Virus record (IMG/VR): IMGVR_UViG_2609459856_000012
From: a virus
Lineage: Duplodnaviria > Heunggongvirae > Uroviricota > Caudoviricetes
Direction: 5' to 3' (one strand)
DNA: 5,296 bases
Below, piece by piece: positions 1 through 5,296 of the stretch. The position numbers are program-made. Numbering within the stretch: the first letter of the stretch is position 1; every line of letters begins with the position of its first letter.

Positions 1-3000
1 TTTTGAACATTTCAGGCTATTTTTCTCGCGTTAGGTTCCCGCACAGGTTCCCACGTTTTATGGGAACCCGAAATAACGAGGTCGTGTAATGGCGTACTAT
101 AACATAGAGAAACGACTAAAATCCGATGGCACACCACGCTATCGCTGTAATGTGATTATCAAAGAAAAAGGTGTTATCACTTACAGGGAAAGCAAAACAT
201 TCCCTAAACATGCCCATGCCAAAACATGGGGTACACAGAAAGTGATGGAATTAGATCTATATGGCATTCCATCATCAAATGCAGTTGACGGACTTACAGT
301 CCGTGACTTACTACACAAATATTTAAATGACCCAAATGCCGGAGGTAAGGCAGGCCGTACTAAAAGATATGTGCTGGAACTGCTTATGGATAGTGACATC
401 TCCGCGATCAAACTATCCGAACTGACAGAAAATGACGTAATTGAACATTGCAGGCTAAGAAACAACGCTGGTGCAGGTCCAGCAACAGTCAGCCACGATG
501 TAAGTTATCTTGGCAGTGTTCTGGATGCGGCCAAACCTGTATACGGAATTAATTACACATCAAACCCGGCGAAAAGCGCTCGTCCATATCTACTTAAACT
601 TGGTTTGATTGGTAAATCAAACCGTCGTAATCGTAGACCAGCATCTGATGAACTGGACATGCTCATTGAAGGCCTTCAACAACGATCTACTCATAAATGC
701 TCAAAAATTCCGTTCGTTGATATCCTCAAATTTTCTGTGTGGTCCTGTATGCGAATCGGAGAAGTATGCCGGTTACGATGGGAAGATCTCGACCAGGAAC
801 AAAAATCTATACTCGTAAGAGACAGGAAAGATCCACGCAAAAAGGAAGGCAACCACATGAAAGTAGCCTTGCTTGGGGAAGCCTGGGATATCGTCCAACG
901 ACAGCCCCAAAAATCGGAATTCATTTTTCCATATAACAGCACTTCTGTTACTGCGGGATTTCAGAGGGTAAGAAGCAAATTAGGTATTAAAGATCTGCGA
1001 TACCATGATTTGCGTAGAGAAGGGGCAAGTCGCTTATTTGAGGCTGGTTTTAGTATTGAGGAAGTCGCCCAAGTTACAGGGCATCGTTCATTAAACGTGC
1101 TATGGCAGGTATATACCGAACTGTATCCGAAATCTTTACATAATCGTTTTGAAGAGCTCCAAAAGAGCAGAAATAAGACCTCTTGACACTGTTTATCCAT
1201 ACAGTTAAAAATAATACTGTATACAAACACAGTATAGAGGGACTTTTATGCGTATTGAAATCTGCATAGCCAAAGAAAAAATGACTAAAATGCCAACCGG
1301 TGCTGTGGATGCGTTAAAGGAAGAATTAACCCGACGCATCAGTAAACGTTATGACGATGTAGAGGTGATCGTAAAAGCCACCAGCAACGATGGCCTTTCT
1401 GTTACGCGCACCGCCGATAAAGATTCAGCTAAAACTTTTGTTCAGGAAACTCTGAAAGATACCTGGGAGTCTGCTGACGAGTGGTTTGTTCACTAATTGG
1501 CACGTAAAATCAGTAACGGCTGGAAATCATTCAATACTCGCACTATCGAAAGTTAACCAGCCAGCCGCAGTATCCTATCATGACAAGTTACTGCGGCTTT
1601 TTACTTTTTATATTTAACGGATCAACATCCAGATCAGCAGACACGCCACCACCGGCACAGCAAAATCCATCAGGCTTGCTACATCCCACGCGCGTAGATC
1701 AAAACCGCCCCACCACGGCATATTCATTCGCTTGCCATGCCCGAACATTTCGATCCAGCGATATTCTGCCTGGGTGTGTTCACGCGCAATGAAGAACGTA
1801 CAACCGGCTATCGCCCCGTAAGCCCAGTTCCCGGTAAAAAGACCAATCAGTAGCTGCGCAGCCACAGCACAAAGCGCATGAAGGAAAGGTGTTATATCCA
1901 TTTTCATCCTACCCAATAAAACGGGGCGCTCGGCCCCTTAATATTATTTAGACGCAAGCGCCGCCTCAATTGCAGATAATCTTTGTCTTAATTCTGCGTT
2001 TTCTTCTTCCAGTGCTGTTATTCTGTCGTCTGACTCTCTGGCTACCTGAACAAGCAAGCCAGTAACACCAGAATAATCTACTGTGTAATAACGTTCACCT
2101 TCTTCACCTTCCGATCCGCTCGCACCGTCCTGATATTTCATTGCGGAACCTACAACTTCTGGGATTGCTTCCAGAGCTTCCTGTGCAATGACACCAGCAT
2201 AGGGCATACCGTTTTCTTTAAGCGTGTATGTATAGCCGTTCATTTTACGGATGCGGTCGGTTGCATTATCGATCACCTGAATGTTGTCTTTCAGATCCCG
2301 GTCGGAATGCTGGTTAAATGCGGTGGCATGACATGCACCATTAACGCTTAACATATAGGTGTTATCGGTATTTTTCTGCGCATAGAACATATAAGCGCCA
2401 CCATCAACACCGACTTCATAAACAACAGGACGGCTAGAATTTCCCCATAATAACGTCGACACACCAGAATAAGCCGTACCCTGTGTGTTTAGTGTCATGG
2501 TCGACCCGTGATTAGCATATTTGATCTGCAATGAGTCTGTATTATCAAACTTAATAAGCGCGTTACTTCCCCGCACACCATACGACATGAGACAGTTCCC
2601 CATCTTAAGGTAACCATCACTGCCTGGAAAAATTAAAGTTCCTCCGTAAAGATCACTAAAGTCCCAAAAGATACCTTTTGTCCCGTTATGTGTGACGATC
2701 CTCGTCATTGTATCTTTAGTACCATCAATATTTTTTCTGGTATATATGTCACTATAAGCGTTTTCCGTTTCACCAGTCTTATTTGACAAGTGAATCTTAC
2801 CGCTAAATATAGTTCCAGTGGTCGGCAATGTCTTTTGATTATAGATTACATTGCAATAACTATTCCATGTTGTTTTATTGTCTACATAAGATTTTGTTGC
2901 GTAGCTTCCTTGATCGTTTTTTAATTTGCTAACGTCGGATTTTAGCGTTTTGATATCATCAGGAATTACTGTCGATGTAGCCATTTTTCTTCCTCACATC

Positions 3001-5296
3001 CAGCCACGAAGTTGATGCTCAACAGCAACCACGTATTCATCGAATAATGACGATATTTGCGAATCATTAATGATGCGCACGTTTACAAAATATCCGTCTT
3101 CCTTAACACATACCGGTTCGCCATCTTCAGTAAGTTCTCCGGTTTCTTTGTACACATTACCTATCACGTCAATAAGAATATCATCCTGCATCGACTCGTC
3201 ATCATAATAGCCAATACTCTCCATAAAGGCCGAAAAGTCGGCCCTGTCGGCAAATTTGAGTGTTAAATCTTTCATTAGATTGACTCCCCCATCTGAGCAT
3301 CAGTCAATGCCTTGTGCCATATTCTGAAATTCCTGACATGACCAAATAAATGACGCAACCCGGCTGTAGTCTGGCCTCCAATACGGATAATTGCGGTGTT
3401 CTGAATATAGGACCATGTGGCTTTCTTTTCGCTGGATATACGCCCGTTACTTACTGAGCACGTAGACTGATCTGACTTTACACGCATCCCCATAACCATT
3501 TTTTCAAGCGATGCGTTTTCGTTTACCCGTCTGTTAGCCAAACCTATATCGCAATAAGGAAATCCGTCGTAATCTGTTGAACGACCGAAGCCAAGAATAA
3601 TAGCCGCTCCGGTTTGATGACCGCCGGTATCAAAAACACGTGGCGCTGCATTTGGCGTTTTATACCAGTTCTTATGTACCTCACAAAGAACCGTAAAAGG
3701 AAGATTATAAAGATTATTCTTAATTGGAACTGTAACTATATCGCTTGCGCGGGTCGCCGCCGTCGCTCCTGATATAATAAAAGATGATACACAAGGCCCA
3801 TCTTCTACTTGTGGGGTGGCCAGATAAATATAGTCACCAGATACGGTTGCCCCGCTCTGCTTAGGAGAATACTGTATCTGAGAGCCTATTTTTAACTCCC
3901 CATCAATTGCCTGAATTGTTGCCTCTGCAAAAATCCATCCGGTAGCTTCGTCCTTTCTGACTCTCGCTGTAATCCTTGAGGCAGCACCGCCTGTCATATT
4001 AATTTCAAGCGTTTGTGTATCAATATACGCATCACCAAGAAAAGTTGTTGCGCTACCGTCATATTTATCAAACCGGATACGCAACCTTACCTGCAGTTCT
4101 GTTTTAAAACGACATGAGGTTGTCACGTGTTTATTATCGCCTGAGACATCAACTGACTTTGTTGCAGCAATTGATGCCATATTAATGGCTGAGGTTTGCC
4201 CAATCAGAGAATCGTTGCAGACAAACTTTCCATAGGTAAAACCAAAATTATCCGTCCCTGTTTCGGGCACATCCATATTTGACGATCGCCCCCAACTGGC
4301 AGGGCTTTCCGAATTGAGCATGTAGTTTGTTCTTTGCCCCTCAATAAGCAGGCCATCACGTTCAAATCGTGGCTCGTCAATGGCAGCCTCTGTCAGCACA
4401 CCAGATTTGTTAATATAGGTTGCTTTCGATGCACGTTTAAACTTAACAATCTTGTCGCCAGGCATCGTTATTTCATCATCACCAATAACAATTTTTTTAT
4501 ATGACGGCGAAAAGCCCGTAATCATATCCAGTGAATCGTTAAACGGTATCCACACATCGGGAAGCGGCTGCAAAACTTGTTTATACGGCTCCGCAGCCTG
4601 GCTTGCATACTCTCTGGCTGCGTCTTCACTTGCTTTTGCAGCCGTCTGGCTTGCAGCGGATGCTTTCGCCGAGTTAGCCGCCGCAGTCTCGCTCGCCTTT
4701 GCGTTGGTTTCACTGGTTTTTGCTGCTTTTTGACTGTTGGCTGATGCAGTGGCAGAAGCAGCCGCCGCACTTGCAGAACCAGCTGCAGCACTCTCGCTTT
4801 GGGCTGCTGCATCCTGACTGTTTTTCGCCGCAGTTTCGCTGGCTTTGGCATTCGTTTCGCTGGTCTTCGCTGCCGTCTGGCTGGACTTTGCGTTAGTTTC
4901 ACTCGTCTTCGCAGCTTTCTGGCTGTTAGCCGCAGCAGTTGCTGATCCAGCTGCTGAAGTCGCAGAACCGGCTGCCGCGCTCTCGCTTTGGGCTGCTGCA
5001 ACCTGGCTGTTTTTTGCCGCAGTTTCACTGGCTTTGGCATTCGTTTCGCTGGTCTTCGCTGCCGTCTGGCTGGACTTTGCGTTGGTTTCGCTCGTCTTTG
5101 CGGCTGTCTCGCTATTTTTCGCGTTGGTTTCTGATTTTTTGGCTGCTGTCGCGGAGTTTGCCGATGCAGTCTTTGAGGTCGCTGCCGCCTGTGCACTATT
5201 AGCTGCATTCGTTTCTGAGGTTTTCGCCGCGTTCTTCGATGATGCCGCTGCAGTTTCGGATTTCTTTGCCGCCGCTGCGCTCTGAGAGGCGGCTTC

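What the first reader, a model, noticed from the sequence alone, without database searches (positions are those of the whole stretch)
2994..3275. Highly acidic 93-aa protein translationally coupled to stf
Its start overlaps the stf stop (TAATG) and its stop is embedded in the ribosome-binding site of the next gene. That tight coupling argues it is a genuine, stoichiometrically co-expressed partner of the fibre proteins. Its strong net negative charge (about -14 by my count) and small size would fit either a novel fibre chaperone or adapter, or a DNA-mimic-type anti-defence protein that has landed in the fibre operon. I could not assign a family.
Basis: inference. Interest (0 to 1): 0.5.

Follow-up and report, generated by a model that had tools for sequence, protein, structure and literature searches.

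The report
Small acidic partner of lectin-headed tail fibres
The 93-codon gene is real and belongs to an unstudied family of small acidic proteins that always sits directly after phage tail-fibre genes ending in one particular sugar-binding "head", so it is most likely a fibre accessory protein that published fibre models have left out, not an anti-defence protein.

Summary
A 93-aa ORF lies at 2994-3275 on the minus strand. Its ATG overlaps the stf stop (TAATG), and its TGA lies inside the GAGGAAG ribosome-binding site of the next gene. Net charge is -14 and pI is 4.05.

It is a genuine gene: PHROG 1361 matches at E 2e-46, hundreds of homologues exist, and dN/dS is 0.2-0.3. It has no Pfam, NCBIfam or PADLOC match and no convincing structural relative. 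It is therefore not a Tfa-type chaperone by sequence or fold.

Comparative genomics points to its partner. In lambdoid, T1-like, T5-like, Seuratvirus, Dhillonvirus and rV5-like coliphages, and in Buttiauxella and Cupriavidus prophages, a homologue directly follows a gene whose product ends in a GTA-head-spike-fibre/LamG-like lectin head. Allelic fibres that end in an S74 intramolecular chaperone lack it.

In many lineages, including this window, the next gene is an exchangeable distal fibre. Its first ~26 residues (TVIPxDIxxLK) occur only in this context.

Best reading: a head-specific accessory subunit or assembly factor, which together with the head probably forms the socket for the distal fibre. 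A DNA-mimic role is not supported. The function remains untested, and I could not run complex prediction.

The parts
3275..5296 (-). 3' two-thirds of the side tail fibre gene stf, which runs off the right end of the window. It encodes an Ala/Ser/Thr-rich repetitive shaft followed by a ~430-aa C-terminal head.
   Evidence: Translation. PHROG 1419 'tail protein' at E 5e-234. 97.9% nucleotide identity to the phage 2G7b gp22 region.
3746..4348 (-). GTA_spike_fiber (NF048003) domain of the Stf head. This is the lectin-like polysaccharide-binding module first defined in the RcGTA head-spike fibre.
   Evidence: NCBIfam gives 52.3 bits against a cutoff of 36, over residues 76-276 of the 432-aa segment. 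The same domain is present in all 8 other fibres that are followed by a homologue.
3293..3436 (-). Extreme C-terminal LamG/ConA-like strands of the Stf head, including the family-wide motif IRIGGQTxxGxRHLFGHVRNFRIWHKALTDxQ.
   Evidence: Weak Laminin_G_3 hit at E 0.05. The motif is conserved in most fibres examined, with looser variants in L004 and L006.
3284..3290 (-). Shine-Dalgarno-like GGGGGAG inside the last stf codons, 8 nt before the ATG of the small gene.
   Evidence: Read from the sequence.
2994..3275 (-). The finding: the 93-aa acidic protein gene, a member of PHROG 1361.
   Evidence: AF2 model with an 18-sequence alignment: pLDDT 85.4, beta-alpha-alpha-beta4-alpha, with a low-confidence but conserved C-terminal tail.
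2989..2995 (-). GAGGAAG ribosome-binding site of the distal-fibre gene. It overlaps the TGA stop (2996-2994) of the small gene.
1944..2984 (-). 346-aa distal tail-fibre protein with a C-terminal Peptidase_S74 intramolecular chaperone (residues 227-278, about 2151-2306).
   Evidence: Pfam PF13884 at E 6e-14. PHROG 4563 at E 9e-209.
2907..2984 (-). N-terminal ~26-aa putative docking peptide MATSTVIPDDIKTLKSDVSKLKNDQG of the distal fibre. It is the only part shared with otherwise unrelated distal proteins of T1-, T5- and Seurat-like phages.
   Evidence: 119 of 119 motif-bearing genes in IMG/VR have a small-protein homologue immediately upstream. Relatives of IrisVonRoten Gp24 in phage groups where no homologue of the TVIP-associated type was found (Kuravirus, Wifcevirus) align only from residue 27-49. 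The mosaic boundary with 2G7b is at 2879.
1923..1937 (-). Terminator-like hairpin GGGGCCGAGCGCCCC followed by GTTTTATT, which closes the stf-small-distal operon.

Best explanation
The 93-aa ORF encodes a head-specific accessory protein of a widespread type of side or lateral tail fibre.

Shown:
- The gene is real and under purifying selection.
- Its translation is set up to be coupled to Stf.
- Across phage families it is inherited as one cassette with a particular fibre tip, the GTA-head-spike-fibre plus LamG-like lectin head.

Inferred:
- The protein binds that head. The conserved but unstructured C-terminal PxR(V/E)W(A/S) tail and the invariant G(Y/W)xVNxR strand are candidate contact elements.
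- It acts as a trans-acting assembly or stabilising subunit. In gene order it takes the place that a Tfa takes after lambda-type fibres. In allelic terms it takes the place of the S74 intramolecular chaperone in fibres that lack it.
- The head plus small-protein unit provides the socket for an optional, exchangeable distal fibre. That fibre carries a conserved N-terminal ~26-residue peptide and is the 346-aa protein in this window.

The result would be a two-tier fibre: a proximal Stf with its own glycan-binding heads and a distal receptor-binding protein.
For: 1. Invariant synteny. A homologue directly follows a fibre or head gene, with a 1- or 4-nt overlap, direct abutment or at most an 8-nt gap, in:
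- lambdoid phages (window; 2G7b; phage 21);
- Drexlerviridae (tinuso);
- Seuratvirus (KurtStettler and Dru_SM1);
- T5-like phages (IrisVonRoten, phC17, AZ21 and AKFV33);
- Dhillonvirus;
- rV5-like phages (naswa);
- four metagenomic loci;
- Buttiauxella and Cupriavidus prophages.

2. Domain specificity. The window fibre plus 8 of 8 other fibres carry NF048003 GTA_spike_fiber above its cutoff. The two allelic fibres without the small gene end in Peptidase_S74 instead.

3. A natural swap. rV5 gp41 and naswa gp54 are 91% identical over ~1060 aa and then diverge. One ends in S74 with no small gene. The other ends in the lectin head with the small gene.

4. Retention without a distal fibre. 47 of 47 phage-21-type loci lack a distal fibre and show dN/dS 0.32. 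naswa and L003 also lack one.

5. Identity of the head tracks identity of the small protein: Spearman 0.74 over 136 pairs.

6. The distal-fibre docking peptide occurs only next to this module.

7. Acidity (pI 4.05-4.5) and the sequence signature are conserved from gamma- to betaproteobacterial phages.

8. Published AlphaFold models place the distal RBP Gp24 of IrisVonRoten on the lectin-headed proximal fibre Gp22 without considering the small Gp23 encoded between them (PMC11990801).
Against: - There is no direct evidence of binding, of presence in virions or of a requirement.
- The founder of the head domain, the RcGTA head-spike fibre, is monomeric and was purified from E. coli as an mNeonGreen fusion, with no partner mentioned, and still bound capsule (PMC10218006, PMC7296036). 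An obligate folding chaperone is therefore not a given. No small-protein homologue is reported next to that gene.
- The head is near neutral (pI 5.8-8.6), so the negative charge is not explained by simple electrostatic complementarity.
- The head-versus-small-protein identity correlation is confounded by linkage and shared ancestry.
- The cryo-EM text on the lectin-headed rV5-like fibre mentions no extra subunit (PMC12143355).
Confidence: 0.5

Rival explanations
1. It is purely a structural connector, a 'knee-cap'. The protein is a virion component whose only job is to join the N-terminal peptide of the distal fibre to the end of the proximal Stf.
For: - The gene lies exactly between the proximal and distal fibre genes in the window, tinuso, KurtStettler, IrisVonRoten, phC17 and AKFV33.
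- Every docking-peptide gene sampled has it upstream, 119 of 119.
- The docking peptide is specific to this module.
- Small-protein subtypes go with distal N-terminus types: 92-93 aa with TVIP, 99 aa with MANRIDTINL, 85 aa with a third type.
- The head, the small gene and the first ~35 codons of the distal gene form one conserved block, with the mosaic boundary at 2879.
Against: - The gene is kept intact and under purifying selection where no distal fibre exists: 47/47 phage-21 type loci with dN/dS 0.32, PhiR41_1, naswa, L003, Buttiauxella and Cupriavidus.
- The published model attaches the distal fibre to the proximal fibre without it.
Confidence: 0.2
2. It is a mask or regulator of the lectin head. 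The acidic protein occupies or shields the glycan-binding surface inside the producer cell or on the fibre. This would prevent premature binding or aggregation, and the protein would be displaced at adsorption.
For: - The strong negative charge is conserved in all members.
- The partner domain binds (often acidic) polysaccharide in RcGTA.
- The expression set-up looks stoichiometric.
- The gene is retained with or without a distal fibre.
Against: This is speculative. No precedent was found in the literature searches, no structural similarity to known inhibitors was found, and it does not explain why the docking peptide is restricted to this module.
Confidence: 0.1
3. It is a DNA-mimic or other anti-defence protein that landed in the fibre operon.
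For: It is small and very acidic, with net charge -14 and pI 4.05. No known family could be assigned.
Against: - It is locked to one type of fibre tip across unrelated phages and two bacterial classes.
- It is embedded in the late structural operon by start/stop overlap on one side and a shared stop/RBS on the other.
- There is no PADLOC match, although that library covers defence rather than anti-defence.
- It swaps in and out together with the head domain.
Confidence: 0.03
4. It is not a functional gene, only a chance or decaying ORF between two fibre genes.
For: None beyond its small size and the lack of annotation.
Against: dN/dS is 0.2-0.3, the length is conserved, there are hundreds of homologues down to ~30% identity, the AF2 model is confident, and the N- and C-terminal motifs are conserved.
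Confidence: 0.01

Closest known systems
Tail fibre assembly proteins (lambda Tfa, P2 G, Mu U; Pfam PF02413 Caudo_TAP)
   Same: A small protein encoded immediately downstream of, and translationally coupled to, a tail-fibre gene. It travels with the fibre's C-terminal tip as a cassette. From established knowledge, some Tfa proteins stay bound to the tip.
   Different: No sequence similarity (no Pfam hit at E<=1) and no fold match. The partner tip is a lectin-like beta-sandwich head rather than the Tfa-dependent trimeric tip. Requirement for folding is untested.
Peptidase_S74 intramolecular chaperone domains (K1F endosialidase, T5 pb1)
   Same: It occupies the equivalent slot in allelic fibres. 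rV5 gp41 and mEp460 Stf end in S74, whereas naswa gp54 and the window Stf end in the lectin head plus this separate protein.
   Different: S74 is part of the fibre polypeptide, is cleaved off, and has a known fold. This is a separate alpha/beta protein with no similarity to it. Functional equivalence is an inference from the allele swap only.
T4 long-tail-fibre joint proteins gp35/gp36 and the branched LtfA/LtfB fibres of DT57C
   Same: A multi-segment fibre in which a distal receptor-binding segment docks through a conserved N-terminus onto a proximal segment (PMC4728585).
   Different: No homology. gp35 and gp36 are much larger. DT57C LtfA ends in S74 and, as far as the paper's text shows, has no small intervening gene. 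A joint role for the 93-aa protein is unproven.
RcGTA head spike (fibre Rcc01080 plus base protein Rcc01079)
   Same: The partner domain of the Stf head is the same family (NF048003). It is lectin-like and binds polysaccharide.
   Different: The RcGTA fibre is anchored by its N-terminus to a jelly-roll base protein, described as sitting on capsid pentamers. That base protein is unrelated in fold to this protein. The genes named downstream of rcc01080 (rcc01081-86) are capsule-biosynthesis genes, so no small acidic partner is reported there.
PHROG 1361 / VOG7707 / 'FIG00639828 hypothetical protein'
   Same: This is the family it belongs to, with a full-length match at E 2.4e-46. Annotations in phage records use these labels.
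   Different: These are only clusters of unknown function. No literature mention was found.

Membership tests
PHROG 1361 (unknown function) | Full-length profile match | tested here: met
   E 2.4e-46, residues 1-93 against profile positions 1-92 of 92.
Tfa-type tail fibre assembly protein (PF02413 Caudo_TAP and relatives) | Sequence match to the family profile | tested here: not met
   No Pfam-A family at E<=1 and no NCBIfam family at E<=1.
Tfa-type tail fibre assembly protein (PF02413 Caudo_TAP and relatives) | Fold related to solved Tfa or chaperone structures | tested here: not met
Tfa-type tail fibre assembly protein (PF02413 Caudo_TAP and relatives) | Encoded directly downstream of the fibre gene and co-inherited with the fibre tip | tested here: met
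Tfa-type tail fibre assembly protein (PF02413 Caudo_TAP and relatives) | Required for folding or trimerisation of the fibre tip | not testable with these tools
   This needs co-expression or deletion experiments. The RcGTA homologue of the head was purified from E. coli as a fusion, with no partner mentioned, and bound capsule, which argues for caution.
DNA-mimic anti-restriction proteins (Ocr, ArdA type) | High density of acidic residues | tested here: met
   21 D+E against 7 K+R, pI 4.05.
DNA-mimic anti-restriction proteins (Ocr, ArdA type) | Elongated fold displaying a DNA-like charge array, or a structural match to known mimics | tested here: not met
DNA-mimic anti-restriction proteins (Ocr, ArdA type) | Early or leading-region expression, independent of structural genes | tested here: not met
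   The gene is embedded between two late fibre genes by a start/stop overlap and a shared stop/RBS. It is always linked to the GTA_spike_fiber head.
Peptidase_S74 intramolecular chaperone | PF13884 domain | tested here: not met
   The domain is absent from the 93-aa protein. It is present in the neighbouring 346-aa protein.
Known anti-phage defence proteins (PADLOC-DB) | Profile match | tested here: not met
   No family at E<=1.

The most novel reading that the evidence does not exclude
The small acidic protein is the physical joint of a plug-and-play fibre system shared by lambdoid, T1-like, T5-like, Seurat-, Dhillon- and some rV5-like phages. It sits on the lectin head of the proximal fibre and creates the socket that accepts any distal receptor-binding protein carrying the ~26-residue TVIPxDIxxLK peptide. 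That would be a new kind of tail-fibre connector. It would explain how distal RBPs are exchanged across phage families, and it would need to be included when engineering chimeric fibres.
Probability: 0.3. Interest if true: 0.7.

Novelty: new variant of a known kind. Interest (0 to 1): 0.55.

Why it matters
Side and lateral tail fibres set the first step of host recognition. They are the main target of host-range engineering in lambda-derived delivery particles and in therapeutic coliphages.

This family is present in widely used phages: phage 21, the BASEL phages IrisVonRoten, KurtStettler and PeterMerian, many T1- and T5-like isolates, and the O157 phage AKFV33. It is also present in hundreds of E. 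coli prophages. Even so, it is annotated as hypothetical, and published two-protein fibre descriptions skip over it (AKFV33 orf136; IrisVonRoten Gp23).

If the protein is needed for assembly of lectin-headed fibres or for docking the distal fibre, then current structural models of these fibres are incomplete. Transplanting such fibre tips without it would then be expected to fail.

It would also define a third solution for fibre-tip maturation, alongside Tfa-type chaperones acting in trans and S74 chaperones acting in cis.

Tried and rejected
- Single-sequence AF2 model: pLDDT 49, unusable. It was replaced by an alignment-based model. This used both structure-prediction jobs, so no complex could be predicted.
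- Profile search with the search for homologous proteins returned only the close E. coli clusters in its top 120 rows. Distant members came from the representative library and from locus look-ups.
- The search for related loci with the family alignment failed because no stretch was conserved enough. The tinuso protein as query gave only 2 IMG/VR loci.
- The afdb50 fold library was unavailable. BFVD gave only uncharacterised phage proteins.
- PDB sequence search gave only chance GAPDH hits.
- Literature:
  - No mention of the family by accession or PHROG id.
  - The Gifsy-1 Stf paper, the Eligo lambda-STF paper, the T1 cryo-EM paper, the CBASS-escape preprint, the E. coli HS phage preprint and the RBPseg atlas do not discuss it.
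- DT57C LtfA/LtfB was considered as a direct analogue and rejected. LtfA ends in S74, not in the lectin head.
- The RcGTA spike base protein was considered as a homologue and rejected. It has a jelly-roll fold and forms the spike base on capsid pentamers.
- A programmed frameshift fusing Stf to the small protein was considered and rejected. The relative frames and spacing of the two genes differ between lineages: 1-nt overlap, 4-nt overlap, direct abutment (TAAGTG) and an 8-nt gap.
- Electrostatic pairing with a basic head was rejected because the heads are near neutral.
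Full report
**What the window is.**
The 5.3-kb window is the end of the late region of a lambdoid E. coli (pro)phage.
- On the plus strand lie a tyrosine integrase (89-1186) and a DinI-like gene (1248-1496).
- On the minus strand, from right to left:
  - the 3' two-thirds of a side tail fibre gene stf, which runs off the window and ends at 3275;
  - the 93-aa ORF (2994-3275);
  - a 346-aa tail-fibre protein with a C-terminal Peptidase_S74 intramolecular chaperone (1944-2984);
  - a terminator-like hairpin (1923-1937);
  - a ~95-aa membrane protein.
- The block 2879-5296 is 97-98% identical to phages 2G7b, HannyBb and Tritos. There the ORF is annotated 'FIG00639828 hypothetical protein'.

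**Check of the observation.**
- The stf stop and the ORF start overlap as TAATG (3277-3273), with a GGGGGAG Shine-Dalgarno-like run 8 nt upstream.
- The ORF's TGA (2996-2994) overlaps GAGGAAG, the ribosome-binding site of the next gene, whose ATG is at 2984.
- The protein has 21 acidic and 7 basic residues (net -14, pI 4.05).
- It is a real gene:
  - a full-length match to PHROG 1361 at E 2.4e-46;
  - hundreds of homologous clusters;
  - dN/dS of 0.195 and 0.319 in two subfamilies;
  - conserved termini.
- No Rfam family matches the window.

**What it is not.**
- It has no Pfam, NCBIfam or PADLOC match, even at E<=1.
- It has no homologue in the PDB by sequence.
- An AlphaFold2 model built on an 18-sequence alignment is confident (pLDDT 85.4, pTM 0.71). 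It shows a compact beta-alpha-alpha-beta4-alpha domain followed by a low-confidence C-terminal tail.
- Foldseek against the PDB gives nothing at E<=1e-3.
- BFVD returns only uncharacterised phage proteins.
- It is therefore not a Tfa-type chaperone by sequence or fold, and it does not resemble known DNA mimics.

**The conserved partner is the upstream fibre head.**
- Divergent family members (25-45% identity) were traced to their loci. In four metagenomic contigs the gene directly follows, with overlapping stop and start, a protein homologous to the C-terminal ~430 aa of the window's Stf.
- In the phage collection about 185 of 50,697 records carry a homologue, always under or next to a tail-fibre annotation.
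- The same arrangement was read in phage 21, tinuso (T1-like), KurtStettler and Dru_SM1 (Seuratvirus), IrisVonRoten, phC17, AZ21 and AKFV33 (T5-like), Ioannina (Dhillonvirus), PhiR41_1 and naswa (rV5-like).
- The window fibre and all eight other fibres tested carry the NCBIfam GTA_spike_fiber domain above its curated cutoff. A weak Laminin_G_3 match follows at the extreme C-terminus in seven of the eight and in the window fibre.
- Most of them, including every named phage except the frameshifted AZ21 record, share the terminal motif IRIGGQTxxGxRHLFGHVRNFRIWHKALTDxQ. L004 and L006 have looser variants.
- The family reaches Buttiauxella and Cupriavidus prophages. There the gene again follows a 402-469-aa GTA-spike-like protein.
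- Acidity (pI 4.05-4.5) and a sequence signature are conserved throughout. The rV5-like subgroup lacks the last element. The signature is M[KR]D..L[KR]F, IGxxY, G[YW]xVN[VLI]R and a terminal PxR[VE]W[AS].

**Natural swap experiments.**
- rV5 gp41 and naswa gp54 are 91% identical over their first ~1060 residues and then diverge.
  - rV5 ends in a Peptidase_S74 chaperone and has no small gene.
  - naswa ends in the lectin head and has the small gene.
- mEp460 shares the window's integrase-DinI side and the stf 5' part. Its Stf ends in S74 and no small gene follows.
- The small gene therefore moves in and out together with the lectin head. It sits where cis-acting chaperone alleles need nothing further.

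**The downstream gene.**
- In the window and in all 78 close prophage loci with sequence downstream, the next gene starts MATSTVIP(D/G/E)DI(K/T)TLK. At least three different protein bodies follow this start: 346 aa with S74, about 234 aa, and about 227-229 aa.
- The same N-terminal ~17-37 residues head otherwise unrelated proteins:
  - in tinuso (224 aa);
  - in KurtStettler (510 aa);
  - in IrisVonRoten (574 aa, the T-shaped O16-binding RBP Gp24) and phC17;
  - in AKFV33 orf135, as a variant.
- A degenerate DNA pattern for the motif found 120 genes in IMG/VR. All 119 with enough upstream DNA have a small-protein homologue immediately upstream.
- Relatives of Gp24 in Kuravirus, Wifcevirus and other phages align only from residue 27-49. 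The first ~26 residues are thus specific to this module.
- This is the usual signature of an N-terminal anchor for an exchangeable distal fibre.
- The dependence is one-way, however. Phage-21-type prophages (47 of 47 loci), PhiR41_1, naswa, L003 and the Buttiauxella and Cupriavidus loci have the head and the small gene but no such distal fibre. In the phage-21 type the small gene is still under purifying selection.

**Literature.**
- Humolli et al. 2025 (PMC11990801) model the IrisVonRoten fibre as the distal Gp24 attached to the proximal Gp22. They note that Gp22's 'galectin-like domain protrudes from the C-terminus'.
- The 92-aa Gp23 encoded between them is not discussed. One sentence even calls the proximal fibre 'Gp23'.
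- The AKFV33 paper (PMC3326045) describes a two-protein fibre made of orf137 and orf135 and skips orf136. I show that orf136 is a family member (hmmsearch E 2.4e-22).
- The RBPseg atlas confirms by cryo-EM that a lectin-like head replaces the S74 domain in an rV5-like fibre. It mentions no accessory protein.
- The founder of the head domain, the RcGTA head-spike fibre, is a monomeric, lectin-like, capsule-binding protein. It was produced in E. coli as an mNeonGreen fusion with no partner mentioned.
- No paper mentioning the family by accession or PHROG id was found.

**Interpretation.**
The firm conclusions are these.
- The gene is a real, conserved companion of GTA-spike/LamG-headed fibres.
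- Its expression is coupled to the fibre gene.
- The head, the small protein and the distal N-terminal peptide form one conserved block.

I infer that the protein binds the head and acts as an accessory assembly or stabilising subunit. I also infer that the head plus small-protein unit is the socket for the optional distal fibre (confidence about 0.5).

A pure connector role (0.2) fits the gene order and the docking-peptide data. It does not fit retention of the gene without a distal fibre.

A role in masking the lectin (0.1) would explain the conserved acidity but has no other support.

The DNA-mimic idea (0.03) is contradicted by the strict linkage to a structural cassette and by the predicted fold.

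The caveats are as follows.
- The RcGTA homologue of the head needs no such partner.
- The identity correlation between head and small protein (Spearman 0.74) is confounded by linkage.

**Novelty and score.**
Small accessory proteins downstream of fibre genes are a known kind (Tfa, gp38). This family is unrelated to them in sequence and predicted fold, and it serves a different type of fibre tip. It is widespread in model and therapeutic coliphages and appears to have been overlooked. I rate it a new variant of a known kind, with interest 0.55.

Noticed in passing
window 1614-1901 (-): A ~95-aa predicted membrane protein (PHROG 1443, E 5e-57). The ORF listing TTG start at 1916 is probably wrong. 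Homologues start at MDITPFLHAL, which corresponds to the ATG at 1901 with AGGA 5 nt upstream. In phage-21-type prophages (47 loci) and in PhiR41_1 this gene follows the small acidic gene directly, 12 nt (9 nt in PhiR41_1) downstream. In the window it lies after the distal fibre gene and a terminator-like hairpin. It may be a moron or superinfection-exclusion gene.
   Followed up: partly
window 1923-1937: A GC-rich hairpin GGGGCCGAGCGCCCC followed by GTTTTATT on the minus strand, between the 346-aa fibre gene and the membrane-protein gene. It looks like the terminator of the fibre operon. The scan also flags it on the plus strand.
   Followed up: no
window 4679-5113: The stf shaft contains a 189-nt (63-aa) tandem repeat of 2.3 copies at 84% match, with nested 42- and 21-nt periods. 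It encodes the Ala/Ser/Thr-rich SETNAK-type coiled-coil region. Such a repeat is a likely site of length variation by recombination.
   Followed up: no
L151 22200-26018 (rV5 gp41) versus L012 1562-6001 (naswa gp54): A clean allelic swap of the fibre C-terminus after ~1060 shared residues: an S74 chaperone tip versus a lectin head plus small gene. This matches the RBP_10 versus RBP_11 replacement reported by cryo-EM in the RBPseg paper.
   Followed up: yes
L098 3776-3991 (Escherichia phage Dru_SM1): The 5' end of the distal fibre gene encodes MTKQVTNIPADIKTL... and then hits a stop. The NLSDLADRAAAWLNVRP continuation lies in another frame. This indicates a frameshift (sequencing error, pseudogene or slippage), which has led to a mis-annotated 30-aa ORF and a truncated 'tail fiber protein'.
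   Followed up: no
L004 116-1519 and 2050-2739: This metagenomic contig carries two paralogous GTA-spike-like head proteins (40% identical). The small acidic gene and a 73-aa ORF lie between them.
   Followed up: no
PMC11990801, section 20 versus the Fig 12 legend; L008 2614-7013: The text names the proximal fibre of IrisVonRoten 'Gp23', while the figure legend says 'Gp22'. In the record, bas32_0022 is the 796-aa fibre and bas32_0023 is the 92-aa homologue of the finding. RefSeq labels the 92-aa protein 'tail fiber protein'.
   Followed up: yes
phage collection hits: Several records named 'Campylobacter phage' (135-138 kb) and 'Listeria phage' (short fragments) carry rV5-like or T5-like coliphage fibre modules. 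They are probably mislabelled or contaminated records rather than evidence of a wider host range.
   Followed up: no
window 89-1496 (+) and L002: The integrase-DinI segment is 97-98% identical to mEp460 and to several Stx-converting phages, while the fibre module differs. The window therefore spans a mosaic junction at the prophage end.
   Followed up: partly
L273 761-1669 and 2776-4318 (Cupriavidus basilensis prophage): A 302-aa protein whose C-terminus looks like an S74 chaperone lies about 1 kb upstream of the stand-alone 402-aa GTA-spike-like protein and its small acidic partner. Both tip types therefore appear to coexist in one tail module.
   Followed up: no
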